Assembly (NCBI GenBank): GCA_963806535.1
Contig: CAWDYC010000001.1
Span: 1 to 29,912, forward strand
DNA from: Candidatus Bathyarchaeota archaeon
GTDB lineage: Archaea > Thermoproteota > Bathyarchaeia > Bathyarchaeales > Bathycorpusculaceae
Direction of reading: 5' to 3'
Length of the DNA stretch: 29,912 bases
The notes below the pieces were generated by a model. The model was not told where the DNA came from. It was given only the letters and a program-made list of their open reading frames with translations, and made no database searches. The position numbers were made by a program, and so were the translations under genes. Numbering within the stretch: position 1 is the stretch's first letter; every line of letters starts with the position of its first letter. Below are positions 9,970 through 29,274 of the stretch, piece by piece.

Positions 9970-10620
9970 TTCGCGATTGGCCACTTTGCCTTGGGATACA
10001 TATTTGGGAAAACTTCATCAAAGCTAGCCAGAGTAAAAGTAAATATGCCTCTTCTGTTTGCTGCCTCAGTACTGCCAGACGTTGATCTGCTGTTTCGTTT
10101 CTTAACGCATAGAGGACCAACACATTCATTCATAACAATAACTGTGTTGATGATTCCGTTTTTCGTTATTTACCGCAAACAAGCCATTCCGTATTATGCA
10201 GCCATGCTCTCCCATATTCTTATAGGCGATTTTTTCACGGGAGGCATCGAGCTTTTCTGGCCGCTCTCTCATAACGTGTTTGGAGCGCTAAACTTTGGGG
10301 TAACCAGCATGCCTATCGCGATAACGGAGCTCATCCTCTTCCTCTTAACCGTGCCATTCATGTACAAGCTGGGTGATCTAAAGACCCTACTAAAACCCAA
10401 CAACGAAAGCTGGGCTCTAATAATTCCATTAGGAGCAATCATTGGACCGTTAGCGTCTCTTGGTCGAGGCCAAGAAAGTGCTCTTCCAACCCTTCTTGTG
10501 ATTCCAAGCCTATTCTACATTGGCATGTTCACATATTCCTTGTATGTTTGGCTGAAATGGAGACGCATAAACACTCAAGCTGTGCCTAAACCTAACAATG
10601 TCGAGATACCGTCTAATTGA
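9967..10620 (+). CDS. Membrane-bound metal-dependent hydrolase (YdjM/DUF457-like)
   Basis: SVLPDVD, HRGPTHS, SHILIGD, LFWPL. The expected N-terminal GH motif (FAIGHFALGY) lies upstream of the ORF-track start 9991, so the start is placed at 9967. Confidence 0.85.
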   Translation, partial: TFAIGHFALGYIFGKTSSKLARVKVNMPLLFAASVLPDVDLLFRFLTHRGPTHSFITITVLMIPFFVIYRKQAIPYYAAMLSHILIGDFFTGGIELFWPLSHNVFGALNFGVTSMPIAITELILFLLTVPFMYKLGDLKTLLKPNNESWALIIPLGAIIGPLASLGRGQESALPTLLVIPSLFYIGMFTYSLYVWLKWRRINTQAVPKPNNVEIPSN

Positions 10621-10722: not shown

Positions 10723-10998
10723 TTATGTCGGCCGTGTTTTATCTTCTGTTTGAGGTTCTGCAGTGATTTCTTCGATTGGTTTAGGCGCCGGCGTACTTGC
10801 CATCGTATAGCCAATCCAAGCACCAATGCCCAATATAGCGATAAATGCAAAGGAAACCAGAATCAAAACTGCATCCAACCTAACACTAGCTGCATTGAGG
10901 CTAAATAGACCTGGATCAACCACCAAAACAAGAAAACCAACAACCACAACAACACAAACAACCAAAATAGCCCCACCAATCACCTGATCCTTACCCAT
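10723..10998 (-). CDS. Small two-TM archaeal membrane protein, copy 1
   Basis: MGKDQVIGG...ILGIGAWIGYTMASTPAPKPIEEI. GGTGGTGA RBS before ATG 10998. Paralog of 12229..12504. Confidence 0.85.
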   Translation of the reverse strand: MGKDQVIGGAILVVCVVVVVGFLVLVVDPGLFSLNAASVRLDAVLILVSFAFIAILGIGAWIGYTMASTPAPKPIEEITAEPQTEDKTRPT

Positions 10999-11140
10999 AA
11001 ACTCTCTCACCACCCACATCCAGTTAATAGTTCAAAATATTTTTCAATAAAACAACTTTCAAGTTAATAACATTTATGAACAAATTTTTTTCTTTGTGTT
11101 TTGGGTTGCTTTTTTGGTTTGGGGTTGGTTTTGTTTGCAG

Positions 11141-11447: not shown

Positions 11448-11708
11448 CTAATTTTTCTTGTAAACTTTCTTCCTATGCTCAGCATCATAAAGCATTATTG
11501 TTTTCTCATCTTCGTCTATAAAATAGATAATTCTGTAATCTCCGATTCTAAGAGACCACTTACCTAAAAGGCCTGCACGCAAAGGTTTTCCAATGCAGGG
11601 ATTGGTTTCAAGCAGTTTTATCGTTGCATCTAATCTTCTTTTAGTTTGAACGTCAAATGTACGAAAACTTTTTTCAAACGTCCTTGTAACTCGAAGCTTA
11701 AATCTCAC
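11448..11708 (-). CDS. RelE/ParE family type II toxin
   Basis: NPCIGKPLRAGLLGKWSLRIGDYRIIYFID...HRKKVY, a basic 86-aa protein. Confidence 0.92.
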   Translation of the reverse strand: MRFKLRVTRTFEKSFRTFDVQTKRRLDATIKLLETNPCIGKPLRAGLLGKWSLRIGDYRIIYFIDEDEKTIMLYDAEHRKKVYKKN

Positions 11709-11907
11709 CAGTTTCTTTCAGCTCCCCGAGGAATTCAGCGTAGTCCCTAACTCTTCCAGCTTTAACATCTTTTTCAGCCTGATTTAAACATAACATCGCT
11801 TCTTTGTCTTCCAGTATACTGAAAGTTTCAACTACTTCCTCAAGTAAACTGCTAACTTTTACTAGTAAAGCCCTATCTTCATCAGTCAGGAGAACTCCTT
11901 CAGGCAT
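11698..11907 (-). CDS. Putative antitoxin
   Basis: Acidic ~69 aa protein (EEVVETFSILEDKEAM...AEKDVKAGRV, PHD/YefM C-terminus-like). It is upstream of and overlaps the toxin. GGTGTGA RBS precedes ATG 11907. Confidence 0.8.
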   Translation of the reverse strand: MPEGVLLTDEDRALLVKVSSLLEEVVETFSILEDKEAMLCLNQAEKDVKAGRVRDYAEFLGELKETGEI

Positions 11908-12158
11908 CAAATCACACCAAACTATTACTTCGCAACTTTCATATTTTAACATATTCATCTCTTCCCCGTCAAAAGTAATTTTTACAAGAGATGTTAACGC
12001 GAAAGCTAGCGACTTTAGTTGGGAAGAGTGTCAACAAGGCCATTAATATAAGTCCATTGGGCATGTGGCTTTCATGATGCATCCTCAAAGGTTGGGTTCT
12101 CCTCTTAAAAAGTTAAATTATGTTAATTCTTTTAATGAATTATTCAGTAGGCGAATAT

Positions 12159-12228: not shown

Positions 12229-12504
12229 TTATGTGGGCGGGGTTTTATTTTCTGTTTCTGGTTCTGCTGTGATTTCTTCGATTGGTTTTGGCGGCGGCGT
12301 CGATGCCATAGTATAGCCTATCCAAGCACCAATTCCTAGAATAGCGATAAATGCTGCCGAAACCAAAATCAAAACTGCATCTAACCTAGCTTGGGCCGCA
12401 TTGAGGTTAAATAGACCTGGATCAACCACTAAGACGAGGTAGCCTGCAACGACGATAACGCAAACAGCCAGAATAGCTCCACCGATTGCTTGATCTTTAC
12501 CCAT
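12229..12504 (-). CDS. Small two-TM archaeal membrane protein, copy 2
   Basis: MGKDQAIGG...ILGIGAWIGYTMASTPPPKPIEEI. Same length as copy 1. Confidence 0.85.
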   Translation of the reverse strand: MGKDQAIGGAILAVCVIVVAGYLVLVVDPGLFNLNAAQARLDAVLILVSAAFIAILGIGAWIGYTMASTPPPKPIEEITAEPETENKTPPT

Positions 12505-12814
12505 GAGTTCTCTCACCACCCTCATCCATCATTTGTTTCAAATCTTTCCCCAAGAATCATTAATCCAATCTCGCCTAGAAAAAGATGAATCCAGAATAGC
12601 TTATAAACAATATTTCTAAAAAGTAACATCTCAAAATTTATCTTTCAAAAAGAAATCTATCTTAAAAAGTTCTTTTGCGTGTTGTTAATTTGAATTGTTT
12701 TTTCTAATGTGGGTTCTCGCGGTGTTTTTGTGTTCTACAAATGTTCAGTTCTTTCAATCAAAATAAATGTTTATTAATACTCAATACTTACGACATACAG
12801 CAGGGCAGAATATC

Positions 12815-13264
12815 ATGAAATCTCAGAAACTCTCCAAAGTAGGAACAATCGCACTTGTAATAGCCGCAATAGCACTAATCGCAACAACCGCAGCAGTACT
12901 TACATCAACTCAAACCGTTCCCCTAAACGGATCAATAACCGCAGTAAACGTAGGCGTATACTCAGACAGCGGCTGCACACAAACCGTCACATCCCTAACA
13001 GTTGGAACCCTAAACCCAGGAGGAACAGCCACACAAACAGTATACATCAAAAACATAGGAAACGTACCAGAAACACTAACCATGGCAGCAAGCAGCTGGA
13101 ACCCATCCAACGCCACCTTATCACTGACATTAACGTGGAACCAACAAAACACAATCTTACCAGCAGGAAACTCAGTCCCAGCAGTATTAACCTTGACAGC
13201 AGCATCAAACTGCGGATCCATGACAACTTTCAGTTGCAGCGTAACAATCACAGGCACCCAATAA
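12815..13264 (+). CDS. Small exported beta-rich protein, candidate fibre subunit
   Basis: Basic N-terminus and hydrophobic helix ending ATTAA, then a Thr/Ser/Asn-rich domain (VGVYSDSGCT...GTLNPG...VYIKNIGN...LTLTW...TITGT). Confidence 0.8.
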   Translation: MKSQKLSKVGTIALVIAAIALIATTAAVLTSTQTVPLNGSITAVNVGVYSDSGCTQTVTSLTVGTLNPGGTATQTVYIKNIGNVPETLTMAASSWNPSNATLSLTLTWNQQNTILPAGNSVPAVLTLTAASNCGSMTTFSCSVTITGTQ

Positions 13265-13310
13265 ACAATTTCCATTTACCGGGGCTGTTCTGAGCGAAAG
13301 ACAAATGCGT

Positions 13311-13364
13311 AGTCAACTTTAGGTGCTCGTCACCCCCGATTAGTGGAGAACGATGACGGCACAA
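13311..13364. repeat. Conserved ~55-nt hairpin element, copy 3
   Basis: AGTCAACTTTAGGTGCTCGTCA-CCCCCGATTAGTGGAGAACGA-TGACGGCACAA. Confidence 0.85.
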
Positions 13365-13412
13365 TTTTTTTTAATTATTCGAAAGAATTTTTGAAATATA
13401 AACAATATGAAT

Positions 13413-14012
13413 TTATTGGGTTTTGGTTAGATTCAATTGAAGATTTACGTAACGATCGTTAAATTCAATGGATCCTGTCTGGTCATTGAAGAGCCATAAT
13501 TCAAAGAATAGTTGATACGGGAATTTGGTGCTGTTTGAATTCCATATGGCGGACTTGTCCACGTTTAATGTTACGTCGTTTATTTGTAGGGTGTTTATTT
13601 GTGAAGTAGTTGGGGAGATTGTGGCGTCGGTGACTTTAAAGCTCAAGAGCTGTTGCCAAACGGTGTTGTCTTTGATGGAGAATCGGTATTCGTAGATGGG
13701 TTGAAGGGGACTTGGGATTCCAAGGGTTGCGTTCGGTAATTGATCAGTGGCATTGGCAAGCTTCACGTATAACACATAGTAGGCTGAAGAGCCCAAATGG
13801 TTTCCAACATTTACGTAGACAGAGTAGTTCTGGCCCACCGCGATGTTGGAGGGGTAATTTTGAGCCATCTGCTCCGGACCCAACAGATAAAGCTCAGAAA
13901 ACGCCTCGCCTGCAGGAGCACGAATAGCCCCAGCAATCGCAGGAGATGCAATAAGCAAAACACCAATTAAACCCACAGCAACAAAAACAAGTTTGTAATC
14001 TCCAAGCTTCAT
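13413..14012 (-). CDS. DUF1616 domain protein
   Basis: N-terminal TM, then EAFSELYLLGP..MAQNYP...VYVNVGNHLG...Y.LYVKL and LFFELW. Confidence 0.8.
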   Translation of the reverse strand: MKLGDYKLVFVAVGLIGVLLIASPAIAGAIRAPAGEAFSELYLLGPEQMAQNYPSNIAVGQNYSVYVNVGNHLGSSAYYVLYVKLANATDQLPNATLGIPSPLQPIYEYRFSIKDNTVWQQLLSFKVTDATISPTTSQINTLQINDVTLNVDKSAIWNSNSTKFPYQLFFELWLFNDQTGSIEFNDRYVNLQLNLTKTQ

Positions 14013-14536
14013 TCGCCAACCAACTCCGGTTTTGCTTCAGACAAATTCTTAATGTAATTACGTTTGAAACGGCGCCAAACCATAAACAAAACCAAAACAA
14101 ACACGATGGAGCCAATTACTGTGAATGCGATGGTTGCATAGAAGGCGTTTTGTGTGTTAACTGTGGCAGTTTGTTTGGCACTTTGAGCGGCGTATGTGAC
14201 CTGTTGTGCCATTGGCAGAACGCTGTCTGCTTGGATCCCGGCTTTGTTTAAATCTCCGGCGCGGTAAGAGTTTTCTGCCTGAGCCAAAACGCCATCAGCA
14301 TAACTTAACTGAGACAACAAATCAGTAACCTTTGCACCCGCTTTTTCAGCATCCAAAACAGCGCTAAAAGCCTGGTCAACTGCTGTGTTGGCTGCCTGCA
14401 GCTTTGAGGTAGTTTGGTCGATTTGGGCAGTCACCTGGTTGACGCTTAGAAAATACATGCTCAGCACTAATATGGAAAGTAAAATGATGCTTGACAACTT
14501 GCAACGGGAATTCGTTCCTATTTTATCCAAATTCAT
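14009..14536 (-). CDS. Exported Ala/Gln-rich helical protein with C-terminal TM anchor
   Basis: Signal-like N-terminus, helical core (AVLDAEKAGAKVTDLLSQL), then a TM and WRRFKR. Its stop overlaps the DUF1616 start (ATGA). Confidence 0.8.
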   Translation of the reverse strand: MNLDKIGTNSRCKLSSIILLSILVLSMYFLSVNQVTAQIDQTTSKLQAANTAVDQAFSAVLDAEKAGAKVTDLLSQLSYADGVLAQAENSYRAGDLNKAGIQADSVLPMAQQVTYAAQSAKQTATVNTQNAFYATIAFTVIGSIVFVLVLFMVWRRFKRNYIKNLSEAKPELVGE

Positions 14537-15005
14537 TATTCACCCTTTCTTGGCGATAACTTCTTTATTTTTTCTTGTTATTAAGCAGATATATCGAAAA
14601 TCGTAATATATACAAAACCTTAATGGAGCTAGAAAGCACCACAATATTATAAATCGGGAGAAGGTTTTATCTTTAAAACAATTTTAGAGACGTCACAATC
14701 GAATGCCTTCCTGAGGGAACTCTTATCTTTTTTTAGAAGCACGTCAGAGACTTTTCCGTTTGTAAATCTGCGTGAATTGTTCAATTTTTGCGATCAACCT
14801 ACATAGTTTATTTTGTTGCTGTTTAAAAAGTAGTTAAACGAATTCATTAGTCAATTAAATTGTTCGACTGTTATTTTAGCAGATTAGACAAAGTATTCTG
14901 ATGTTTACGACTGGCGGAATACAAGATCTTCGATTCTTTCTTGGATAGAACTAATCTAGAGCAATGAGAAGATATTTTACAAAAAAGGAAGGAACGGCGA
15001 TGAAC

Positions 15006-16758
15006 CTAGCTGCCAGTTGCTGTAATAGTCGTGCTGAAACCGAAACTTGACATTGCAGGGGTACTTGACGAGACAACCAAAGTCAGTGTAATTTTCAACG
15101 TAGCTCCAGGACTAAGCGCCTGATTTGAGTAATCCCAATTAAGAGTCAAGTAAGATGAAAGAGACGAAGGACTAAAGTTCGACAATCCTTTTGAAAGAGT
15201 CACAGCAGTGTTGCCCTGATTTTGAACATATACAACCAAAGTCGAAGTCGCACCTGGAGACAAATTTCCCCAATTGAAAGAAGACAGAGTTGCAGTACAA
15301 CCTTGATCGCTATAGATGCCTATTAATGATTGAGGCGATGGAGTTGGCGAAGCCGTTGGAGTTGGAGACGGAGTAACAGTTGGCTTTGGCGAAGGAGATG
15401 CCGTTGGAGTTGGAGACGGAGTAACAGTTGGCTTTGGCGAAGGAGATGCCGTTGGAGTTGGAGACGGAGTAACAGTTGGCTTTGGCGAAGGAGATGCCGT
15501 TGGAGTTGGAGACGGAGTAACAGTTGGCTTTGGCGAAGGAGAAGCCGTTGGAGTTGGAGACGGAGTAACAGTTGGCTTTGGCGAAGGAGATGCCGTTGGA
15601 GTTGGAGACGGAGTAACAGTTGGCTTTGGCGAAGGAGATTGGCGGATAGCCGTGGCACTTACATTATCCACTTTAAACGTACCAGTTGAACTCACATCAA
15701 AGTGAATCTGTGTTGTAGCAGTACCTGAAGGAATTGGTCCAAAATTCATAGTAGCCAATTTCCAAGTGCGAGAAGACGTCGACAATGCAGGTTCGTTAGA
15801 CATGCTCAGCAAATTCCACGAAGCTCCGAAATAAAAGACATTCGGATAGACCGTCATAGTACTCTTGTAGTAGAATTGCATTGTGTAAGTCTGTCCTACT
15901 TGGGCAGGGATTGATTGCACCATCGTTACGTATCCTGATCCACCTTGCGGAAAACCGGTTACTGTAAACAAACCGCTGTAGATTCCAGAGTAAGCATCGG
16001 TGCTTTGAGCAAGCGACCCAGCGTAACCCTGTGAGTTTGGATCAGAGATCGCTACCGTCCAAGGTGAAGTTCCAGATTCAAAACCTCCATTTTGAAATAT
16101 GTTTACTGATGGTAAAGGTGTTGGGGTGGCAGTGGGAAGTGGAGACGGAGTAACAGTTGGCTTTGAATCAATTGTTGGTGTTGGGCTCGTTAAACTGTTG
16201 TCTACGGCGTATATGCTCATGGCCCCGTCGCTATCGGTTCCCCATATCGTTCCGAACGGGTTTGCGAAACCATTTGCATAATTACTAACAGCATTATGAT
16301 CGCGTTGGCCTGTGCCAACAACTTCCATAACGTTAACTGGGACATCCCCCATTATTGCGAGACCATAAGTTGTACCAGAAGTTACAGTGCATGGTGAGGG
16401 TAGCGTAAAATCAACCCATGAAAAAGTTGTGCTCTATTTTTGCGCACGTTAGATTGTTCAAGCAGAGTAGCCAGCGGAACTTCCGCTGACTGTATATACT
16501 GCGGTTATGCAATTTCCCGAGGAAGCGCCATCAATGTAAGCGACAATATCTGTTATTGAACCAGTTGTTATGGATGTAAAATATGAAACAGACTGAGCAT
16601 TAGCGTCGTTCTGATCGGCCAACTGTTCCGATTGTTGTGTTTCCGAATGCCACTGACCTAACGCTCGCGTTTGTGGTTTGTGACAAAAATAATGAGAACA
16701 TGGAAATTATCATTAATGAAACAATTAGATACTTGTAAGCATCTCTCTTCCTTTTCAA
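15006..16758 (-). CDS. Secreted multidomain surface protein: N-terminal beta domain, CBM4/9-like domain, Pro/Thr/Ser stalk, C-terminal fibre-type domain (about three frameshifts in 16430-16625)
   Basis: TTG 16758 opens [31 protein letters not shown] (signal peptide), which joins via indels to ORF 15006..16352. [15 protein letters not shown]...FKVDNVS is CBM-like. Confidence 0.8.
15352..15639 (-). repeat. Coding tandem repeat, 6 x 48 bp ([16 protein letters not shown])
   Basis: Units start at 15352, 15400, 15448, 15496, 15544 and 15592 and are nearly identical. A degenerate partial copy lies near 16130-16165. Confidence 0.97.
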
Positions 16759-17494
16759 AGCATTTTCCCCTTTGGAATCAAGAGGAAACCCTAACCGACC
16801 CTTAAGTATTAGTGTATATTTGAGTCACAGAAAGACAGCAAAATTTCCAAGAATTGACGTAGTCTTTGAGCAAAACAAGAATAGTTCATAGTGCTTTAAC
16901 TTTAGGAAAAGGGTAAAGTGCATCCAATTGAGAATCCCTTCTTAAGGTTCGTGTGAAAAATTGTATAATCGTTAGTTTGTAAATCTGACTCTCTATGCTT
17001 AACTTCTGTGTTGTCTCAAATCTCAAACGCTTTCGTTTTTCTTTTCTCTCGCCTTTTTTGAAACAAATGTTTCATTCTTAAATTCTGAAACATCTTCAAC
17101 CAAACAAACAGGACATAAAAAATACCCATCTCGATTAGCCTGCAACGGTTCATAAAACCAAGACCCCATGACGACTGCACTTCACTAAATATTCTGGATT
17201 CAAGAAAACATAGCCAAATATTAATAGGTGAATACGTTGACGCAAAGTCAATTTTGGAAGAGACTTAATTATCATTTATTTATTGTTCATTCCGATTCAG
17301 GATAGCCAATGAAGGACCCAACATTAAAGGTAAGTAAAAAACTTTCCTTTAATTTTAATTATCCTTTTTTGACAAATAGTTTAACAGAACATGTCCAGGA
17401 TAAATTTATAAGCGAAATTGTCATTTTGGTTCAAAGTTTATAGCGGGTTTGTATTTGAGCTTGCCTTAACCATAAAAATCTAATTACATTTTGT

Positions 17495-17630
17495 TTCGCA
17501 AGAGTTTTTATTTGCGAAGCTGATTTGACAAACAAGCGAAGCAAAATTAGCAAAGTTTTCATGAGAATTGGCAAATTACGTTGTTTTCGTTCTCAAAAAT
17601 TTTTAAATTCGCTAAATTCGCATATGCGAA
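17495..17630. promoter_or_regulatory. Cluster of TTCGC/GCGAA inverted repeats upstream of the wHTH gene
   Basis: TTCGCAA-N10-TTGCGAA (17495-17518), perfect palindrome TTCGCATATGCGAA (17617-17630), and further GCGAA/GCAAA half-sites between them. Confidence 0.5.
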
Positions 17631-17639
17631 ACGAAAATC

Positions 17640-17988
17640 GTGAGAGGGAAAAAAAATAGTAAAACGATCAGTATTTGAAAAAATATACAGGGAATTGCAA
17701 TCGATTCATTTTCGATTGGATGACCTTGAAAAAAATCTGTCAAATTGGAGTCCGCAGCCTGTAGACATATCTGAGACAAAATTAATTTCTTTGCCGGATA
17801 ACCTGCGAAGAACATACATGTTCGTTGCCTCTAAAGGTGAATGTGACGCAACAGAGGCGTCAAGACTAACGGGACGATGCCGAGCATTAGAAAGCAATTA
17901 CTTAAATCAACTTTCCCGAATGGGCTGGCTAAACAAACGCAAAGTATCAAAAACAACAATCTACTACTTAGCTCAAGAAAAACAATAA
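17640..17988 (+). CDS. Winged-helix transcriptional regulator (probable GTG start, slip in A8 run)
   Basis: LPDNLRRTY...GECDATEASRLTGRCRALESNYLNQLSRMGWLNKRK, with a short coiled-coil N-terminus. Confidence 0.75.
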
Positions 17989-18640
17989 ATAAATTGGCTT
18001 CAAAACCAGTTAGGAATGCAAGTACCTCTGTCGGTCAATTAGAAGATAGTTTCAAAAAGTATTTTGCCGAACCACTAGATTTGTGAGGCATTAAAAAAAA
18101 TCAGCTGAAGAAAAAAGCCACTTCAAGTCTGCGATCTCAACTGATAAGAACTTGACATATTCAAAAGTACCAAAGACAAGAAATCGCCCCAAACCATGGT
18201 GTTTCTTCCATGTGCAACATTAAAATCGTTACGGTTTCCTTCAGGAATTAGCTTTTTGTAAACTTAAAAAGGTGAAATTCTTCACGCGAAATGAATAAGA
18301 TCAAATTCTTGTAACGCAAAGACACTTGGTAACTTTTCTTTCTTTTGATAAGCATAAACACGTTTAGGTGGGCTCCAGAGTGCACTTCATTTTTGGCCGC
18401 AGAATAACTGGAGGCAAAAATTAAACACTAAAAATATTTTTGGAAACTTTTTAATTAGTGTTAAAGTTTGTCTGTTTCTTATTCGTTTTTTCGGCTTCTT
18501 TTATAATGCCCAATAGAAAGTTGAGTTTTATTTTTAGTTTGAGAAGCCGAGTTTTGATTTTGCGAAATTCGATTGTTTGTAAGTTCAGCTTGCGTTCAAG
18601 AGTTATCAATTGTTCGTGTGTTAAGATTTCTGGCGATGAA

Positions 18641-19225
18641 CTAGTACTTGGTGGAGGTAATCTGAAGGTTGAAGCTGTATGTGGTGACATTATCGTTAAT
18701 TAAATAATTTATGAAGCCGTCAGAAGATTGCGAAGTTAGAGTCAGGGTTACCAAAATCGTTTGGTTCGGGTATATTGGAAGTCCATTGTAGTCCCATGAC
18801 AGACTTAGAAAAGATCCGATTCCAGGAGGCGACCAATTGGTTACAATAAACGAAATTGTAACGGGTACATTACTTGTGCTTTGCACAAAGAAAGATGTGT
18901 TCGTTGACTCACCTGCGTAAATGCTAGTCCATTGTATAGCATTTCCATGAAGTTCTCCGCCGAAGATCTTAACTCCCGTCGTGTAGATATAACCGTTATT
19001 AGAATAATTCTGTTCATTAGGAATATATGTCGGATTTAGGGTTTGATTAGGTGAAAGCGTCGGGCTTATGGTGTGAGTAGGCGAAGACGTCGGGATAGTC
19101 GTTCCATCATCCAAAGGTGAGGACGACGGGATGGCTGAAAAAGTAACAAAGATCAAAACTATTACAGCAAAAACCAACGCGACGATTACTAATGTTATTG
19201 ATAGTTTAGGTCTTGCCATAATCAA
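18641..19225 (-). CDS. Membrane-anchored/exported protein with Pro/Thr/Ser linker and fibre-type domain
   Basis: Long N-terminal hydrophobic helix, SPT linker, then IQW..IYAGE...FFVQSTSNVPVT...NWSP...LSLSWDY...VTLTLT...YSFNLQIT. Confidence 0.8.
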   Translation of the reverse strand: MIMARPKLSITLVIVALVFAVIVLIFVTFSAIPSSSPLDDGTTIPTSSPTHTISPTLSPNQTLNPTYIPNEQNYSNNGYIYTTGVKIFGGELHGNAIQWTSIYAGESTNTSFFVQSTSNVPVTISFIVTNWSPPGIGSFLSLSWDYNGLPIYPNQTILVTLTLTSQSSDGFINYLINDNVTTYSFNLQITSTKY

Positions 19226-19495: not shown

Positions 19496-21108
19496 TTAAT
19501 GTATTTGGCTACGCGAGTTAGGTTTGGAGGTTTTCATGAGTTTTTCAATGACATTTAGAGCGCGGGTTAATATTTTGCCAATTATTCCCAGCCCACTTAC
19601 CATGCCGCGCAGGTTTTCTATGTCATATTTGTTTATTGTTTGGGTTAGCAAGGCCGTGGCTAAAAACACGAATGCGAAGAATATTACTCCTATGACTAGC
19701 CGTATCAAACTGGAGAAACTCAGCTCTGAGATGAGAATGTAGGTAAAGGCCGCGGATATTGCAGATGATAGCAGAATTTTTGTTGACGAAAGCCAGTCTA
19801 CTGTCAACTCGTAGTGTTTCCTTATCCAATAAAGCAATATTATAGTGATACAGATTTGAGTCATTAACGAAGTTATAATCAGTCCTAAAACTCCTAACTT
19901 CAAGATTAGAATATAACCTAATGGGAAGCCAATGGCTGCTGCAATTAGATTGATGTACAGGAGAAATGTGGTTTTTCCTTGACTGATGATGAAGTTGCCT
20001 ATGGTTAAGTTTCCAAACGCTGTGTAACAGTAGGTGACTGCAAGGAGCGCAAGGAAAAGGGGTGCCGAAGCAGTAGCTTCTGCCAAACAGCGTGGCAAAC
20101 TGCAGGCTGCGCAAGGCACATTACGAGCGTTGCTACAGGAACAACCAGTAATGAAGCGTATTTTATGGAGAATTGAAAGACGTCTTTAGAGAGCCTCTTT
20201 GTCTTTTTGCAGGTTCCAGCTTGCTAAATGCTGGAAACAGCATTGTTGTTATTGGTGTTGCAAAGAATGTTATAAGAACTACGAAAGTGTTGGGCTATTC
20301 CATAGTTGCCGATTGCAATGTTATCTTTTACATAGAAAATTGGCAGCAAAAAAGTGTAAAATTGACTTTGAAACCGGCACTTATTATTGTTGAAAGCGAT
20401 AAAGGTGTGCCGAACGTGAGCATGGATTTTATGTAGGCTTTGATTTCGAGTTTTCTAGTGTCTGGTTTTGGCAGCTTTCGATATATCGCATACATAAGGA
20501 GCAAACCTGTTGCAGCCGCCACTGCATAAGCTGATATGTTGCCTATCACGGCACCGGCAGTACCTAAGTCCATCGACGACAAGTGTTATCATAATTATGG
20601 TTTTGAAGATTGATTGGATAATGAGCATGATACTGTTGTGCGCCATTTTTTCGACGCCTGTAAAAGCTGCCGTAGCAGCGTTTACCAGCCCAATGGCTAA
20701 AATTAGGATAGATGCCAATTGAATAAGCGGAGCAATAGCGGGACGATGAAACACGTTGGCTGCCAAGAAGCCTGAAAGCCCAAAAGATAGGGCCGACAAA
20801 GCTAAACCCATGGCGATTTCAAAGATTAATCCGGAAACAAATATGCTTCTAACTTCGCTTTCTCTGCCTTCGCCTCGGAATTGCGCCGTGTAACGTACCA
20901 TGGCGGAGTTAACTCCCCAGTCCCTGAAAATTCCAATAAGCGTGGGGGTCACCAAAACTATTCCGTATAAACCGTACAAATCTGAGCCAAGGAGCCGAGC
21001 GACGAAAATTGTTGCAACCGAAGAAATTATTGTGGAAACCACTAGACCCCACAGTAGGTGAAAGCTGCCTGTCGTAGAAACTTTAGCAATATCCGCCGCT
21101 TTGCTCAT
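19496..21108 (-). CDS. Oligosaccharide/polysaccharide flippase (Wzx/MOP family), frameshifted
   Basis: Four overlapping frames with VARLLGSDLYGLYG, DWGVNSAMVRY, MLTFGTPLS, VLFPAFSKL and many TM helices. Confidence 0.85.
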
Positions 21109-22798: not shown

Positions 22799-23045
22799 GT
22801 CACATGCTCCATCTCATCATATTAGGGATAACTTATTAATCTTTTTACGTGATTTCTGAATATTTTAATCTATATAATTTTAAAATTATTGTGAAACCAA
22901 GAGTGCTGTCCCTCGGAAGTGTTATCCGATTCTCAAATTCTCGCATTTTTTAACACCATTCATTAATTCAAAGAATAATTTCACAATAAGGTTGGTTGAA
23001 TACTATTAACATAAAATATCAATCGTTCGAAGGTTTAAAAAAACC

Positions 23046-23677
23046 TCAAAGTTTCGTCGCTTCTATAAAGGATTCAATTTCGTTGGAAAGAAGCAATGGA
23101 AGAAAGCTAATAATTTTTTTGTCATTCCAATTCCACCAAGCGATTTTCAATAACTCATCTATTTGTTCTCTTTTAAAGCGGTATTTTATTACTTTGGCAG
23201 GATTCCCCCAACGAGTGCATAAGGTGGCACGTCCTTTGTTACTAGGGAATTCATGGCAACTACAGCTCCACTGCCAATTCGAACACCCTCTTTTATAGTT
23301 ACGTTACTTGCGATCCATACGTCATTTTCTATAACGATGGGATTAGGTCGAATCTTATTAGTGTCAAGCTTGCCTTGCTGTACAAAGAAGTATCGATTTG
23401 CCATTTATCATAAAACTCATAGAAAGGATAGTCAGAAACCCAAGAATAGTTAAGTTTGCCGAGAAAGGTAAATTTTAATCCCCATGCAATCGAACAGAAA
23501 TTACCGACCTTGCTTCCGCGCGCCTTTTGCAGTGCAATCTCAGGCGTGATACCAATAATCTCGGGTTGAGGACCAAAACTATGTTTACCATAAGGAATGA
23601 TGATATTTGGAGTTCTGCCTGCTTTGCTTTTACGAATTATTTCAAGAATATGATTAAAATTCTTAGAACACCCACAT
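23046..23677 (-). CDS. CatB/Vat-like hexapeptide O-acetyltransferase, frameshifted (start approximate)
   Basis: KVGNFCSIA, WVSDYPF, IVIENDVWIA...GVRIGSGAVVAMNSLVTKDVPPYA, PAKVIKYRF, LLKIAWWNW. Confidence 0.8.
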
Positions 23678-23747
23678 ATTTAATCACTTAGCCTCAGTCA
23701 GTTTTGAAATCTCAACTAATTGCCAAGTCCACGCTGTTCTTGTTTAG

Positions 23748-24756
23748 CTACTTTTTCCGTTTTGTCTTGCTTAAGGTAGCAACTGCATTCCATTTCTTTG
23801 TCTAATTCTATTACTATAGATTTTCAAGTGTATTTAATTCCGAATTTCTATTCATTCCTTTAATAAATGAATACTTATCTAGGCAAAAACAGATATTTCC
23901 AGGGCATTTCACCGGACCTGGCAGGTCGCTTTGGCAGATTATTTTTGCTAAAAATGTTGCCGGATAACTTGGAAAACAACCCACGCTAATATCGCCATTT
24001 GCCGACATTTCGTAAGCTATTGAAGGATAAAGGCAAGTTTTTCCTTTGGTTTTGCCTCCTGTACGATAGTAATAATCTGTTTCGCCTAATTCTTCTTTTA
24101 GCATTTTAGCGAGTTCACCTGTCGGTTGGAAGTCCCATAAAGGATTAGGATGGAGAAGCAAATTGGCTTTCAGAAATTTTTCTTTCAGCTTTTTGTACTC
24201 TAAGGCTTGATTGGGAGTCATAACGTAGTTAACAATCCCAATTGTGCAACCTAAGTTCAAGAGTTTTGTTGCTCTTTGTAGAAAAGGTGTCACATTGAGT
24301 TTGTGATGGATGAAATGTGCACATGAAAATAACCTTTTCTTTGTGCGGCAAATTAGAATAGGATTCTAAGTTCCACGAAAGATTAGTATCTATCCTAATA
24401 TTACTTACATTCTTTTTCTGTAAGATTATACTTAAGAACTCATGCATGTTTTTTACATCTAGCATAGCTTCTCCACCGCTAAGGGTTAGCGCTAGTTCCT
24501 TATCGTGGAATGCTCGATCTATTGCGTCAGCCCAATCGCGAGGCGGATAGTTGTCAAAACAATGAACACTAAAACCATCATCGTTAGCGCGTCCTCGGCT
24601 ATGATCCTGAGAACAATATGGACATGAATAATTGCACCATTCACTCAAATACCACCTGAGCAAAATCGCATCTTGCCAAGTTTTCATGATTTTACCAAAT
24701 TGGTCTATTTCGTTTCGTTGAGTTCTTGGACTTCTGAATAGTTCCCACATATACAT
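23748..24756 (-). CDS. Radical SAM protein with Cys-rich C-terminus, frameshifted
   Basis: EWCNYSCPYC, LSGGEA, IDTNLS, TFHPSQ. C-terminal KTCLYP...GDISVGC...VKCPGNICFC. AGGTGAG RBS precedes ATG 24756. Confidence 0.8.
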
Positions 24757-24974
24757 CTCACCTTTTTGTTTATTATTTGTAAAAGCAGTCAATGCAATAA
24801 CCTATCGCATACCCCACTTTTTAGAATTTTGTATGCCGCCTTGTCTCGAAATTGAAAAGCTTATTTTCAACTTGTAGTTCCGTATTGAGTGTGAATTAAA
24901 TGAAAAATGAAAAGCATGGAAATTTAGTCTTACTTTTCTAAAAACGAGGCTTAAATATGTTTTTTTAGGACAAA

Positions 24975-25424
24975 GAGGTCTTCCATTTGCAATCGTTTTT
25001 AATTACTAGGTCAGTCATTCCAGCAATAAGTGAGTTTTCGGAAAGATTTCCCCACAGACCACCGATTTGGACGCCCCGATGCAGCCATCCTCAACTGTTG
25101 TTCCTTTCAAGATGCTACTGCCAGAACAAATCCAAACGCGGTTTTCAATTTTCGTGTCTGACTACGTCGGGGAAGGGGTGCCATCATATTCAATATAACA
25201 CCAGTTGATGTCTATAACAAGAGAACCTGTTGCAATCATATAGTCTTTTCCAATTTCAATTCTTTTTGGACAAGAATGGTTAAATTGATCCCGGAATCCG
25301 GTTCAGCTTCTTCTCCTGATATCTTTAATAGCCCATTTTCATGAGCTTGAATGTAAGAGCCATAAGTGAAATTCCAGATCATCAATTTGAAAAGTTGCAT
25401 TTCTATGCAAAATGATAAGTTCAT
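24975..25424 (-). pseudogene. Degenerate left-handed beta-helix acyltransferase (ends approximate)
   Basis: KRIEIGKDYMIA and TKIENRVWICSGSSILKGTTVEDGCIGASKSVV. In-frame TAG at 25162-25164 plus indels and an eroded GxPA motif. Confidence 0.6.
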
Positions 25425-25497
25425 CAGGACTGATCAAACAATTTTCATTTTTTGATAAGATCCACCTATCAACTAATCATTAACTATTATCCACTCG

Positions 25498-26406
25498 TTA
25501 AGATGAAGTTTCATTTATTGTAACCAAGTAAAATAAACCGTCGCGAATACCTTTGAGGTATGCGATAAACAACTTTGGTTTCATAAAAATAAGTTTTTCA
25601 TTTGAAAAATTAAGTCAACTGTGAATAAGTAGATAGAGAAAACAATGAATTGACTCCTACTGGAGTTCCTTTTCGCAAATATAAAACGGTTTCTAGTCAT
25701 ATAGTACGTTTCTAGTTCACTATCCGACCTTTTATGGATCTTATGCCAAACTCTAGCTTTTGGTACATAGATTACTTTGAAACCTGCTTTCTTTGCTTTT
25801 AAGCACCATTCTGTTTCTTCGTAATAAGCGAAATAAAGTTCAGTTCAAAAGACCTATCCGTTTGATCGTTTCTTCCTTTATCAGCAAGGCGGTACCAGTA
25901 ACAAAATCAACTTCTTCAATGCAATCGAATCTGCCCATCATCAATTTCATTTCTTCCGATAAGAGGTGTTATACCAGTCCAAGAATTTATTCTGCCACCT
26001 GCGCACCAAATTCTATTAGGCTGTTCATAATACAAAATCTTTGGACCAACTATTCCAATTTGAGCATCAGTTCTGAGCAACGTTAACCAATTCGGTTAAG
26101 AAGTTTGAATCCACAACTGCGTCGTTATTTAAGCAATAGAACGTAGTTTGCTCCAGAACGAAGAGCCCAACGGATTCCTTCATTGCAGCCTCCTGCAAAA
26201 CCAAGGTTTTTTTGCTCTTTGATCACCAAAACAAGAGTCTCCAAATTTTTTCTTAACAATCTCAGCGTCATTTCCTGTTGAGCCATTATCAATAACCACA
26301 ATCATGTAGTTTGGATAAACAATTTTCTGAAGAGATTCTAAACATTCTAAAGTGTCTGTCTAAACCGTTCCAATTTAGTATTATAATCGCTACTTTAGGG
26401 CAACAT
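25498..26406 (-). CDS. GT2 glycosyltransferase, WbbL/rhamnosyltransferase-like, multiply frameshifted
   Basis: KVAIIILNWNG, VIDNGS, NLGFAGGCNEGI, LLNND, VDFVTGTALLIK, YFAYYEETEW, KARVWHK, YYMTRNR. Confidence 0.85.
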
Positions 26407-26729
26407 TTTCGCATAAAAAGACCTTGGCTCCTAATAGTCTTACCAGACGCTTTTTCTTCATCGTTTTCAACCAACCTGCTTTCATCAAATTATTACTCTT
26501 CGACATTGACTTTCGGTACTCGATGGCTTTGTCATAATTATAAGTCGAATTTAGCATAATCAAGAGCAACTGATTTGATTTACAGCTTGGTTCTAAACTC
26601 ATAGTAATACAGAATTAATTTCTGCATTCAAGAGTTAGTAGCAAAAAGCAGACCCGACGAAAACAAGAGGAGCCAAGGAATTAAAAACATACTCGATGAC
26701 ATTTAACTTTATTTATTTTGCGACACTAA

Positions 26730-27895
26730 TTATATCGATAGATTATAAGAAATAATCAAACAAAATAACGCATTGTATGCGAAAAAATAATTCGGTTCCA
26801 AGCATACCACAATTTTAGGTTTTCTGATAAAAAAACGAATCTGCCTTCCAGAAGAAATTATTCGCCAATTGATTAACACGTGGAACTGTCCAGAATACTC
26901 GCTGGCAAAGATTCCACGTCCTGAATTATGCACTTGGCAAATTGCTTTTGCTTCTTCTTATAAAAATCAACTCTCGTTTCAAGCACTTCCTTCATTTCAT
27001 CGTAACCATCGGACAAATTCCTAAAAAGATTCATAATACGCTCTTCAGATGCATTATCAGTTCTGACAATGTACTTTTCAAACCCCACACTCTGAGCTAA
27101 TTCGCGACATTTCGGCTGATATTCTAAAGCAATAAACGGCGTTCCCGCAGCTGCACTCAAACCCAAAGAATGCAACTTTTCGCCTACAACAATCTTGCAA
27201 CTAGCAATAAGGTCGAGAGTTGACTGAATATCGAACCAATCATCAAATAAACTAATACCCTCTTCATCTGAAAATTTTTTCAGACGCTGAACATTCTTCT
27301 CCCAAAAAGGTATCAAAACTAAATCATACCCTTCTCTTCGCAGGTTTCTGCAGACTTTAGCTACTTCTACGAGAAGCCGTTCCTCGTTCATTCCCCAAAG
27401 AATGCCATCTGAACCAACAGCTATGGCAATCTTGTTATCAACTCTCTTAATCGAGCGACTGGGATGCAAAGAAAAACTGACATCGCCGATAACTTCTGAT
27501 TTAATTCCCCATTTCGCCAGCAAATTCTTCGAAATATCGCCTCTGACACCAATTCTTTTGAAAAACTTGAGTCGGTTTATTGCAACCGAACATTTGGAAC
27601 GAATTCTGATAAATGTAATTATATCCGAAAAAAAAAGGGTCTTTTACTCCCAGATCCAAATACGTAATTGTACATTGTTGGTCTAATAGCCTCAAGCCAT
27701 TCTGGAATACCTGTACTATCCCCAATAATAGTAATAGGACTAATACCACTATAGTCTGCATAATTCATCGATGCATGGTACAAGCGTAAAACAACCAAGC
27801 AACTCCCTAATTGCCTTATAAACAGCTTCATCACCTAAATTGCCTTCTCCAAGCCAACCAACGTAGTTAATTCTTCTTTTCTCTCGTCCATTCAT
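26730..27895 (-). CDS. Polysaccharide pyruvyltransferase family (CsaB/WcaK-like), frameshifted (3' end approximate)
   Basis: YVGWLGEGNLGDEA, IGVRG, VIGD, VGEKLHSLGLSAAAGTPFIALEYQPKC. Confidence 0.85.
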
Positions 27896-27924
27896 AAAAC
27901 GTCAACTCGCGAGAAGAAAGCTAA

Positions 27925-29190: not shown

Positions 29191-29274
29191 AATTGAAAGT
29201 ACTTTTCAGTATCCGTTTTGAGCAAGACATAACACATTATAAAATTATTTCTATAACATCTGATTAGAAAACAA

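What the first reader, a model, noticed from the sequence alone, without database searches (positions are those of the whole stretch)
12815..19225. Candidate new archaeal fibre system: three proteins share one domain in shaft, tip and anchor architectures
Seen: a ~105-aa domain occurs three times. P1 (12815..13264) has VGVYSDSGCT..GTLNPG..VYIKNIGN..SWNP..LTLTWN..LTLT..FSCSVTIT. The C-terminus of P2 (15006..16758) has [49 protein letters not shown]3 (18641..19225) has IQWTSIYAG..FFVQSTSN..NWSP..LSLSWDY..LTLT..YSFNLQIT. P1 is only a signal peptide, a short strand (VLTSTQTVPLNGSIT) and the domain. P2 lacks that strand and instead carries a CBM-like domain and stalk. P3 has a long hydrophobic helix, a linker and a similar NGYI strand. 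Established: TasA/CalY and the archaeal bundling pilin polymerise by donating an N-terminal strand after signal cleavage, and FimH-type tips are lectin plus strand-accepting pilin domain. Inference: P1 is the major subunit, P2 a glycan-binding tip and P3 a membrane base, giving a biofilm or adhesion fibre beside a glycan cluster. No SipW-like peptidase is visible in this window.
Basis: partly seen in the sequence, partly recalled or inferred. Interest (0 to 1): 0.85.

Follow-up and report, generated by a model that had tools for sequence, protein, structure and literature searches.

The report
Predicted strand-swapping fibre proteins of Bathyarchaeia
Three genes in this soil archaeon share one small antibody-like domain, and modelling suggests that the smallest protein links head to tail into a surface fibre by lending a strand to its neighbour, a way of building pili known elsewhere but not described for this group.

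Summary
The shared domain is real. P1–P2 are 42% identical over 103 aa (E 2e-18), and a P1-family profile hits P2 at 3.7e-35 and P3 at 2.4e-20. P1 (12815..13264) and P3 (18641..19225) are intact. P2 (15006..16758) is not one open frame: it changes frame near 16621 and carries stops near 16470–16425.

P1 belongs to a large unnamed family, found mostly in one order of Bathyarchaeia. Members have a short basic N-terminus, a ~24-residue uncharged helix, a conserved strand, and a six-strand PapD/MSP-like Ig sandwich.

A three-copy model places residues 30–43 of one copy against the last strand of the next copy (score 0.58, best control 0.00). That is donor-strand complementation.

P2 and its intact relatives carry a copy of the domain without the strand, behind CBM-type heads and Pro/Thr stalks. 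P3 belongs to a divergent paralog family with a conserved N-terminal anchor.

The tip–shaft–base trio recurs in only 2 of 26 loci. In relatives, P1 and P3-like genes bracket an archaeosortase cassette that is missing here.

Verdict: this is a plausible new family of strand-donating fibre subunits, supported by models only. The tip and base roles are inferred.

The parts
12815..13264 (+). P1, 149 aa, the small subunit. Residues 1-31 (12815..12907) are a short basic N-terminus plus an uncharged helix. Residues 32-43 (12908..12943) are the conserved N-terminal strand. Residues 44-149 (12944..13261) are a six-strand Ig-like domain.
   Evidence: ORF. Homologs are mostly 149 aa. AF2 pLDDT 91: helix 8-27, coil 28-45, six strands. 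In the trimer model residues 30-43 sit on the next copy.
15006..16758 (-). P2, a modular surface protein that is broken in this assembly. It has a signal peptide and first jelly-roll-like domain (about 16116..16758; frame change near 16621, stops near 16470-16425). Next comes a CBM_4_9-like domain (about 15648..16115), then a Pro/Thr stalk, then a C-terminal copy of the shared domain without the N-terminal strand (15009..15323).
   Evidence: frames. (intact relatives P0272, P0273). (CBM_4_9: 31.2 bits against a cut-off of 25.9 in P0273, 20.9 in P0272, no hit in the window's own copy). (domain).
15352..15639 (-). Six copies of a 48-nt repeat, 99% alike, encoding the Pro/Thr stalk of P2.
   Evidence: Tandem Repeats Finder; translation.
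18641..19225 (-). P3, 194 aa, a divergent paralog. It has an N-terminal membrane helix (residues 8-29, 19139..19204) and a disordered Pro/Thr/Ser linker (about 19019..19138). The strand plus domain follows (18644..19018), with a family-specific helix inserted before the last strand.
   Evidence: ORF. AF2 pLDDT 80: H8-29, 39-74 below 50, strands from 77, H169-177. P3-like family alignments.
13413..14536 (-). Two overlapping ORFs (14009..14536 and 13413..14012) that together resemble one DUF1616-type membrane protein. They are convergent with P1.
   Evidence: Pfam DUF1616 E 1.3e-14 for 13413..14012. A fused 352-aa form occurs in L021. A second P1-like gene of this genome lies directly downstream of a DUF1616 gene.
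9991..10620 (+). YdjM-family membrane protein, tied with the flippase as the most frequently conserved neighbour of P1 genes.
   Evidence: Pfam YdjM E 1.4e-11. Its cluster is present in 10 of 26 loci.
19496..21108 (-). Polysaccharide flippase gene (Polysacc_synt), split over three frames in this assembly. It is a conserved neighbour of P3-like genes.
   Evidence: Pfam. tblastn with an intact relative. Present in 10 of 26 loci and within 1.5 kb of 18 of 30 P3-like genes.
17695..17988 (+). Small conserved ORF (97 aa, no family) between P2 and P3. It recurs near family members in 5 of 26 loci.
   Evidence: No Pfam hit.

Best explanation
P1 is the subunit of a chaperone-free, donor-strand fibre on the surface of a Bathyarchaeia archaeon.

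It is exported by the Sec route, and its N-terminal helix is probably removed by the general signal peptidase (inferred). That leaves a roughly 118-residue protein that begins with a conserved strand followed by a six-strand PapD/MSP-like Ig sandwich. The sandwich lacks the seventh strand. The strand of one subunit fills that gap in the next subunit, antiparallel to the last strand, so subunits join head to tail (predicted by a model, not shown).

P2 is a secreted modular protein with carbohydrate-binding-type heads on a Pro/Thr stalk. It ends in a copy of the domain that has the gap but no strand of its own. It can therefore only accept a strand, and would sit at the end of a fibre or be hung on it (inferred). 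P2 is broken in this assembly.

P3 belongs to a divergent paralog family with a conserved cytoplasmic motif and membrane helix that probably stay attached. It is therefore a candidate membrane-proximal subunit (inferred).
For: (1) The family is real and large. There are 1936 cluster representatives at E<=1e-3 and 906 at <=1e-10, most about 145-155 aa with the same layout.

(2) The AF2 monomer (pLDDT 91) leaves residues 28-45 unpaired and builds only six strands. In both VIA-align lists P1's C-terminus aligns to about residue 91-103 of chaperone or MSP domains of about 120-126 residues. That is up to strand F and without G.

(3) The three-copy model of residues 30-149 scores 0.58, with the best of 3 controls at 0.00. 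That mark was reached by 20 of 30 proteins solved as pairs of one chain and by 1 of 23 solved as single chains. These counts hold only roughly, because my own alignment and three copies were used. The runs agree in at least 97% of contacts, and the partner's pLDDT is at least 89. The listed contacts run antiparallel to the last strand (143-37, 146-33, 147-31) and parallel to 61-63 (36, 37, 39). This is the geometry of an Ig G strand.

(4) No solved protein is related by sequence (best E 0.043), so the pass is not a memory of a homologous complex.

(5) The strand is conserved across the family: I/V/L at 35 in 72 of 93, G39 in 79 of 93, I/V/L at 41 in 86 of 93.

(6) Natural strand-less copies exist. 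All six proteins returned by the domain search (P0271, which is P2 itself, to P0276), and also P0092, join a Pro/Thr linker directly to the domain.

(7) P1-type N-termini are short and variable (median 7 residues, 2 K/R) and end in small residues before the strand. P3-type N-termini carry a conserved motif.

(8) Two general signal peptidase I genes are present in the genome.

(9) The weak Foldseek top hits are donor-strand pilins (CfaB 3e-3, CS17, Csu).
Against: - All support is computational. Only one multimer job was run, and its design (three copies, own alignment) differs from the calibration.
- The residue the model buries, L37, is S or N in 64 of 93 family members.
- The domain also behaves as a general module. 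It occurs as two tandem strand-less copies (P0092), inside dockerin-bearing multidomain proteins (P0123; by eye in P0067), and at the N-terminus of a 479-aa protein (P0062).
- In the P3 monomer the residues equivalent to P1 39-45 fold as a strand in cis, so part of the 'strand' is the domain's own first strand.
- Best fold matches are complete Ig-like domains at Z 9-10, close to the range the tool calls common. No Foldseek match reaches E<=1e-3.
- The uncharged run is long (median 24) and could be a permanent anchor. No signal-peptide predictor was available.
- Groove positions are no better conserved between P1 and P2 than other positions (16 of 37 against 27 of 66).
- The trio occurs in 2 of 26 loci, and P3-like genes in 44 of 301 genomes of the order.
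Confidence: 0.45

Rival explanations
1. P1, P3 and their relatives are single, non-polymerising surface proteins held in the membrane by an uncleaved N-terminal helix. The shared domain is a general Ig-like spacer or binding module of the cell envelope. The predicted strand exchange would then be a modelling artefact.
For: - The uncharged run is long (median 24 residues).
- The domain is used as a module in multidomain proteins, including tandem strand-less copies and dockerin proteins.
- Best fold matches are ordinary complete Ig-like domains with Z below 10.
- In the P3 model part of the strand region folds in cis.
- L37 is not conserved.
- The genes sit among envelope-biogenesis genes: flippase, GT2 and, in relatives, an archaeosortase.
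Against: - The trimer score is 0.58 against 0.00 for the best control. The mark was reached by 20 of 30 solved same-chain pairs and 1 of 23 single chains (roughly applicable). Runs agree in at least 97% of contacts, with partner pLDDT at least 89.
- The AF2 monomer does not dock residues 28-45 in cis.
- The alignments stop at strand F.
- The strand motif with its near-invariant glycine is conserved.
- Strand-less copies would lack an edge strand unless it is supplied in trans.
Confidence: 0.3
2. There is no long fibre. Instead the strand and socket form an attachment device. Membrane-anchored or short chains of P1/P3 capture secreted P2-type proteins through their acceptor-only C-terminal domain and so display carbohydrate-binding heads on the cell.
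For: - P2-type proteins have a signal peptide, variable heads and no anchor other than the strand-less domain.
- P3-like proteins have a conserved anchor.
- The heads differ between close relatives while the C-terminal domain stays 74-79% identical.
Against: - No P1+P2 or P3+P2 model was run.
- P2-type genes lie next to P1 in only 2 of 26 loci.
- In most P3-like proteins the strand follows the membrane helix within about 10 residues, which leaves little room to reach a partner.
- P0092 has two acceptor-type domains in one chain.
Confidence: 0.12
3. P1 is a type IV pilin-like protein. Its N-terminal helix is kept and forms the core of a pilus assembled by an ATPase-driven machine.
For: - The layout is a helix plus a beta-sandwich.
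- One relative (L028 6155..6790) carries a segment that looks by eye like an archaeal prepilin N-terminus between the P1-type N-terminus and the domain. This resemblance is recalled; Pfam found nothing at E<=0.01.
Against: - A class III signal pattern (written from memory) occurs in 4 of 93 family members.
- No pilin family hit for P1 at E<=0.1.
- No pilus ATPase or platform family appeared in the window ORFs that I scanned.
- The region after the helix is a conserved strand, not a continuation of the helix.
Confidence: 0.06

Closest known systems
Chaperone-usher pilins of Gram-negative bacteria (FimA/FimH, CfaB, Csu, Caf1)
   Same: Both have an Ig-like subunit lacking the last (G) strand and an N-terminal extension that fills the gap in the neighbour, antiparallel to strand F. 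Both have a conserved glycine in the donor strand (for the pilins this is recalled). The tip adhesin is built from a binding domain plus an acceptor-only pilin domain. The weak Foldseek top hits are CfaB, CS17 and Csu. The P1 domain aligns to strands A-F of the chaperones' first domain at Z 8-9.
   Different: There is no detectable sequence relation. Archaea have no outer membrane, and no chaperone or usher family turned up among the window ORFs scanned. The acceptor-only domain is C-terminal, behind a Pro/Thr stalk. The closest fold is the chaperone/MSP type rather than the pilin type.
Archaeal thread of Sulfolobus acidocaldarius (Saci_0406, with the putative cap Saci_0405)
   Same: Both are archaeal, Sec-exported and cut by signal peptidase I, with no dedicated machinery known. 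The subunits are beta-rich and joined head to tail by an N-terminal donor strand, and a paralog next door is proposed as the terminal subunit (passages of PMC9715654 seen).
   Different: No sequence match to any solved chain, threads included. Threads did not appear among the listed fold matches. Isopeptide bonds were not examined here. The thread cap lacks an acceptor site, whereas P2 lacks the donor strand.
TasA of Bacillus and AbpA bundling pili of Pyrobaculum (TasA-like, Pfam PF12389); cannulae CanA/AbpX
   Same: These are chaperone-free donor-strand fibres of the biofilm matrix. AbpA is processed by the general signal peptidase, and a multidomain partner (TapA/AbpB) is proposed as initiator or adhesin (passages of PMC9245690 seen). 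The protein-atlas features place P1 loosely near DUF1102 (0.89) and Peptidase_M73 (0.85), which are leads only.
   Different: No PF12389 or PF06510 match in P1 or anywhere in the genome. TasA/AbpA are jelly rolls, and AbpA matches P1 only at Z 6.3 (rmsd 4.2, 106 aligned), below many Ig domains. No SipW-type gene lies beside P1.
Tat-fimbriae (Tafi) of haloarchaea (TafA/TafE pilins, TafC tip, TafF anchor, TafD peptidase)
   Same: This is an archaeal strand-donation pilus for which a tip protein, pilins and a membrane anchor encoded in one locus have been proposed (passages of PMC12337348 seen). TafE matches P1 at Z 6.3 and P3 at Z 6.8.
   Different: Export is by the Tat route in many members, and the locus holds a dedicated peptidase. 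There is no sequence relation. The fold match is weak and within the common range.

Membership tests
TasA/CalY/camelysin family (Pfam PF12389 Peptidase_M73) | Sequence match to the family profile | tested here: not met
   No PF12389 hit for P1, P2 or P3 at E<=0.1. No match anywhere in the genome at E<=0.01, while the Bacillus subtilis control rang.
TasA/CalY/camelysin family (Pfam PF12389 Peptidase_M73) | Jelly-roll fold like TasA/AbpA | tested here: inconclusive
   AbpA (7ueg) matches at Z 6.3, rmsd 4.2, 106 aligned. This is well below the MSP/PapD-like domains at Z 9-10.
TasA/CalY/camelysin family (Pfam PF12389 Peptidase_M73) | Dedicated SipW-type signal peptidase in the operon (bacterial members) | tested here: not met
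   The two archaeal-type signal peptidase I genes of the genome lie on contig C4, not in this window.
Chaperone-usher pilins | Incomplete Ig fold lacking strand G | tested here: inconclusive
   AF2 builds six strands. In the listed alignments to MSP and chaperone first domains, P1's C-terminus lines up with about residue 91-103 of domains of about 120-126 residues. Coordinates could not be inspected.
Chaperone-usher pilins | N-terminal extension complements the neighbour's groove | tested here: met
   This is met in a model only. The score is 0.58 against a best control of 0.00. The mark was reached by 20 of 30 solved same-chain pairs and 1 of 23 single chains (roughly applicable). At least 97% of contacts are shared between runs, and partner pLDDT is at least 89. 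Residues 30-43 sit on 44-48, 58-68 and 136-149 of the next copy.
Chaperone-usher pilins | Periplasmic chaperone and outer-membrane usher genes in the locus | tested here: not met
   No such family appeared among the window ORFs scanned with Pfam. The organism is an archaeon.
Archaeal thread pilins (Saci_0406 type) | Sequence relation to the solved thread subunit | tested here: not met
   A profile of the P1 family against all PDB sequences found only ciliary ASH-repeat proteins, at E 0.043 and 0.66.
Archaeal thread pilins (Saci_0406 type) | Inter-subunit isopeptide bond and conserved N-terminal Asp | not tested
   The feature is taken from passages of PMC9715654. It cannot be judged from the outputs available.
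Archaeal type IV pilins | Class III signal peptide with cleavage before the hydrophobic helix | tested here: not met
   A class III pattern written from memory matched 4 of 93 family members. No pilin N-terminal family hit at E<=0.1.
PapD-like / MSP / ASH Ig-like superfamily (e.g. Pfam PF22544, NCBIfam choice-of-anchor D) | Fold of the s-type Ig sandwich | tested here: met
   VAP-A MSP matches at Z 9.7 (rmsd 3.2, 93 aligned). CEP192 ASH matches at Z 9.1, HYDIN at 8.9, and Caf1M/FimC/PapD first domains at Z 8-9. P3 gives the same list at Z up to 7.7.
PapD-like / MSP / ASH Ig-like superfamily (e.g. Pfam PF22544, NCBIfam choice-of-anchor D) | Sequence match above a family threshold | tested here: inconclusive
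   Only sub-threshold hits were found. Choice_anch_D gives E 2.3e-4 and 21.6 bits against a cut-off of 45 for one paralog. CARDB gives E 0.018 for P2. PF22544 is precomputed on 4 of the 120 listed homologs.
CBM_4_9 carbohydrate-binding module (head of P2) | Pfam PF02018 above the gathering score | tested here: inconclusive
   The window's P2 has no hit at E<=0.1. Relative P0273 scores 31.2 bits against 25.9, and relative P0272 scores 20.9 bits, below the cut-off.

The most novel reading that the evidence does not exclude
Strand complementation serves here as a general plug-and-socket for surface display. Secreted proteins with interchangeable carbohydrate-binding or enzymatic heads end in an acceptor-only Ig domain. 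That domain is captured, practically irreversibly, by the donor strands of P1 fibres or of membrane-anchored P3-type proteins. This would be a non-covalent archaeal counterpart of cohesin-dockerin or sortase display, used by polymer-degrading Bathyarchaeia.
Probability: 0.15. Interest if true: 0.8.

Novelty: new variant of a known kind. Interest (0 to 1): 0.6.

Why it matters
Bathyarchaeia are among the most abundant archaea in sediments and soils, yet almost nothing is known about their cell surface. Donor-strand fibres have so far been solved in archaea only for a few cultured groups: threads, bundling pili, cannulae and Tat-fimbriae.

This family of about 150-residue proteins has no name in any library searched. 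It has 1936 cluster representatives in metagenomes and occurs in 181 of 301 sampled genomes of one order.

If it polymerises by strand donation, that would add an independent, Ig-type solution to chaperone-free fibre assembly. It would also give a simple recombinant test object and point to how these organisms attach carbohydrate-binding modules to their surface.

If the models are wrong, the result is still a well-defined, abundant surface-protein family and a conserved archaeosortase-linked locus worth annotating.

Tried and rejected
- **TasA/camelysin membership** was rejected. There is no PF12389 or DUF1102 match in the proteins or the genome. The DUF1102 search rang in no control genome, so it is uninformative.
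- **Type IV pilin reading** was rejected as the main reading.
- **Thread subunits** did not appear in the listed fold matches. This absence proves nothing.
- **Foldseek against the PDB** gave no match at E<=1e-3.
- **The search for related loci with the 93-row alignment** failed because no stretch was conserved enough. It was repeated on the same tool with the single protein.
- **The look-up of sequencing runs** listed no run, so 'none was listed' and 'no RNA holder listed'. Read laying was therefore not used. Neither expression nor the reality of the P2 frame breaks could be checked.
- **A word-index search with P3** found only 3 proteins. More P3-like genes were obtained with the genome search instead.
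- **Groove versus non-groove identity** between P1 and P2 (16 of 37 against 27 of 66) and between P1 and P3 (9 of 24 against 13 of 57) did not discriminate.
- **Archaeosortase search in the window's genome.** The 677-aa archaeosortase of the relatives' cassette found only a weak match (29% over 119 residues, E 2.5e-5). The genome is 91.75% complete.
- **A dedicated processing role for the neighbouring YdjM-family gene** was considered but left as speculation. Adjacency occurs in 10 of 26 loci with varying orientation, and none of the other four YdjM copies of the genome lies beside a P1-like gene.
- **Supplementary files** of the papers cited were not opened. The lists of archaeal TasA-like and thread-like proteins in the supplements of PMC9245690 and PMC9715654 might bear on whether Bathyarchaeia proteins were noted before.
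- **Not in print, as far as searched.** No paper holds both 'Bathyarchaeia' and 'donor strand'. A search for Bathyarchaeota, pili and archaeosortase listed nothing on this family among the 12 of 113 papers shown.

Full report
**What is in the window.**
The region holds three ORFs with one shared domain.
- P1 is 12767..13264 (+). Its likely true start is 12815, giving 149 aa, because most homologs are 149 aa.
- P3 is an intact 194-aa ORF at 18641..19225 (-).
- P2 is open only from 16352 to 15006 (448 aa). Upstream the same gene continues to 16758, but with a frame change near 16621 and in-frame stops near 16470-16425. This is shown by translation and by alignment of an intact 581-aa relative, P0272.

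The flippase gene at 19496..21108 is likewise split over three frames. The genome is a 2.95-Mb, 12-contig assembly that is 91.75% complete. I could not tell assembly errors from real decay, because no sequencing run was listed.

The domain similarity is solid. P1-P2 are 42% identical over 103 aa, E 2e-18. P1-P3 give E 3e-7 and P2-P3 give E 7e-14. A family profile gives 3.7e-35 for P2 and 2.4e-20 for P3.

**The organism and the family.**
The closest public loci are all titled Bathyarchaeota/Bathyarchaeia MAGs: 15 of the 17 loci returned, with two weak bacterial hits.

P1 belongs to a large family without a name. It has 1936 cluster representatives at E<=1e-3 and 906 at <=1e-10, most about 145-155 aa. 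Of the best 120 of 448 word-index hits, none carries a meaningful name, and 4 carry a precomputed PF22544 Ig-like hit. The protein atlas lists 30 nearest clusters, all unnamed; the ones shown are from Bathyarchaeota.

In a sample of the phylum the family was found in 33 of 401 genomes, nearly all in the window's own order (f1 17/25, f2 3/8, f4 2/4, f5 5/6, f6 1/1). In a sample of the order, 181 of 301 genomes have a member. The window's genome has four small P1-type genes plus P2 and P3.

**Anatomy of P1.**
The 93-sequence alignment shows a short variable N-terminus (median 7 residues with 2 K/R) followed by an uncharged run (median 24 residues). The run ends in small residues and is followed by a conserved strand. 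In that strand, position 35 is I/V/L in 72 of 93 sequences, G39 is present in 79 of 93, and position 41 is I/V/L in 86 of 93. The domain comes next.

AF2 (pLDDT 91) gives a helix at 8-27, an unpaired stretch at 28-45, and six strands.

Fold comparison puts the domain in the PapD/MSP/ASH type of Ig sandwich:
- VAP-A MSP, Z 9.7
- CEP192 ASH, Z 9.1
- HYDIN, Z 8.9
- the first domains of Caf1M, FimC and PapD, Z 8-9

P1's last residue aligns at about residue 91-103 of these roughly 120-126-residue domains. This fits a sandwich that ends after strand F. Z values of this size are near the range the tool calls common, so the fold class is supported but not any function. No solved protein is related by sequence.

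**The strand-donation model.**
Three copies of residues 30-149, folded with the family alignment, gave a score of 0.58 (runs 0.54, 0.58, 0.59) against 0.00 for the best of three controls. According to the tool, the mark was reached by 20 of 30 proteins solved as same-chain pairs and by 1 of 23 solved as single chains. These counts apply only roughly here, because my own alignment and three copies were used. The runs share at least 97% of contacts, and the partner's pLDDT is at least 89.

Residues 30-43 of one copy touch 44-48, 58-68 and 136-149 of the next. The listed pairs run antiparallel to the last strand (143-37, 146-33, 147-31) and parallel to 61-63. This is what a missing G strand would do, and what the N-terminal extension does in chaperone-usher pilins. 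The weak Foldseek top hits are such pilins (CfaB 3e-3).

Three points count against the model. The buried L37 is S or N in 64 of 93 relatives. The job design differs from the calibration. I could not inspect coordinates to exclude a cis hairpin.

**P2.**
The C-terminal domain starts directly after a Pro/Thr stalk. The stalk includes six 99%-identical 48-nt repeats at 15352..15639. P2 lacks both the donor segment and the first half of strand A.

The same holds for all six proteins returned by the domain search (P2 itself and five relatives) and for P0092, which has two such copies in tandem.

The heads vary. The window's protein and P0272 have a first jelly-roll-like domain plus a CBM_4_9-like domain. 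That domain is above threshold only in P0273 (31.2 against 25.9 bits), below it in P0272, and gives no hit in the window's copy. In the nearest related locus (L007) the equivalent gene has a different head, with a C-terminal domain 74% identical. In L008 the CBM-like head is attached to a different body.

So 'acceptor-only domain behind an exchangeable binding head' is a fair description. A tip role is an inference.

**P3.**
P3 belongs to a distinct paralog family: 48 places in 44 of 301 genomes at E<=1.3e-41, with a clear gap to the next score.

Its members share a conserved cytoplasmic motif, a membrane helix, a short segment with a Pro-Ser-x-Gly strand, and then the domain with a specific insertion. 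A conserved N-terminal motif argues that this end is kept rather than cleaved (inference). Only the window's P3, its L007 counterpart and P0278 have a long Pro/Thr linker between helix and strand.

AF2 (pLDDT 80) gives a helix at 8-29, disorder at 39-74, strands from 77 on, and a helix at 169-177 for the insertion. The fold list is the same as for P1, with Z up to 7.7.

In the P3 model they open a run (77-83) that folds in cis. The segment equivalent to P1's donor residues is poorly conserved in the window's P3. P3 as a membrane-proximal subunit is possible but untested.

**Context.**
I compared 26 loci: the window, 15 and 10.
- P1-type genes lie near a YdjM-family gene in 10 loci.
- They lie near a polysaccharide flippase in 10 loci.
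- They lie near further small copies in 6 loci.
- They lie near a P3-like gene in 8 loci.
- They lie near a P2-type gene in 2 loci (the window and L007).

In 6 loci (L013, L024-L027, L033) P1 and the P3-like gene bracket a cassette. The cassette holds two small unnamed proteins and a roughly 300-aa unnamed protein. It also holds a roughly 680-aa exosortase/archaeosortase-family protein (TIGR04178, 42 bits against a cut-off of 23). In 4 of the 6 loci it also holds a protein with a C-terminal Pro-Glu-x-Pro motif plus helix and basic tail. Last comes an AglJ-like GT2.

The window's genome has no close copy of that archaeosortase. Here the interval holds the DUF1616-like pair, P2 and a small conserved ORF instead.

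DUF1616 genes adjoin 2 of the 4 small P1-type genes of this genome, and 2 of 7 DUF1616 places have such a neighbour. The rest of the window carries glycan genes: RmlD-like, pyruvyl transferase, GT2 and radical SAM. The general signal peptidase I genes are elsewhere in the genome.

**Comparison with what is known.**
In working principle the nearest systems are the following:
- chaperone-usher pilins;
- the archaeal thread (passages of PMC9715654);
- TasA/AbpA (passages of PMC9245690);
- cannulae and AbpX (search listing and abstract starts only);
- Tat-fimbriae, for which pilins, a tip and a membrane anchor in one locus have been proposed (passages of PMC12337348).

None of these is a family home for P1. 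No profile or PDB sequence match exists, and AbpA and TafE match only at Z 6.3. I found no paper that links Bathyarchaeia with donor strands.

**Verdict.**

The most likely reading (about 0.45) is a new, Ig-type family of chaperone-free donor-strand fibre subunits, with acceptor-only modular partners and an anchored paralog. The main rival (about 0.3) is a family of ordinary, non-polymerising surface Ig proteins.

The kind of mechanism is known, while the family, its fold subtype and its host group are new. I therefore rate it a new variant of a known kind, of moderate to high interest, pending a simple polymerisation experiment.

Noticed in passing
L024 7594..14622; likewise L013, L025, L026, L027, L033: In six related loci P1 and the P3-like gene bracket a conserved cassette. 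It holds two small unnamed proteins, a ~300-aa unnamed protein and a ~680-aa exosortase/archaeosortase-family protein. It also holds an AglJ-like GT2 and, in four of the six loci, a protein with a C-terminal Pro-Glu-x-Pro motif plus helix and basic tail. The window's genome lacks a close copy of this archaeosortase.
   Followed up: partly
window 10723..11019 and 12229..12525 (-), with 11448..11958 (-) between: Two copies of a 98-aa two-helix membrane protein flank a ParE-type toxin gene (Pfam E 3.9e-10) and a small upstream ORF. The membrane protein is also the divergent neighbour of P1 in L008, L010 and L012.
   Followed up: partly
window 19496..21108 (-) and much of 23000..29900: The flippase gene is split over three frames, and few long ORFs are left in the last 7 kb although Pfam fragments (radical SAM, pyruvyl transferase, GT2) are present. 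This means either many assembly indels or gene decay.
   Followed up: partly
L028 6155..6790 (+): A 211-aa relative carries, between a P1-type N-terminus and the domain, a second hydrophobic segment that looks by eye like an archaeal prepilin N-terminus. Pfam found nothing at E<=0.01. It is the first of three tandem family genes.
   Followed up: no
L029 8970..9503 (-): A 177-aa relative has a ~22-residue Pro/Thr linker between the conserved strand and the domain. This is a natural variant in which the strand could reach its own groove.
   Followed up: no
window 15352..15639: Six 48-nt repeats, 99% identical, encode the stalk of P2. Such near-perfect repeats suggest recent expansion, and stalk length may vary between strains.
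   Followed up: no
L008 11424..13450 (-): The CBM-like head and Pro/Thr linker of P2 recur (60% identity) in front of a 397-aa ORF that looks by eye like beta-helix repeats, not in front of the Ig domain. The two ORFs overlap in different frames.
   Followed up: no
window 481..783 (+): A 100-aa ORF has a sub-threshold phage-integrase hit (E 0.0013, 18.9 bits against 27.1), at the start of the contig.
   Followed up: no
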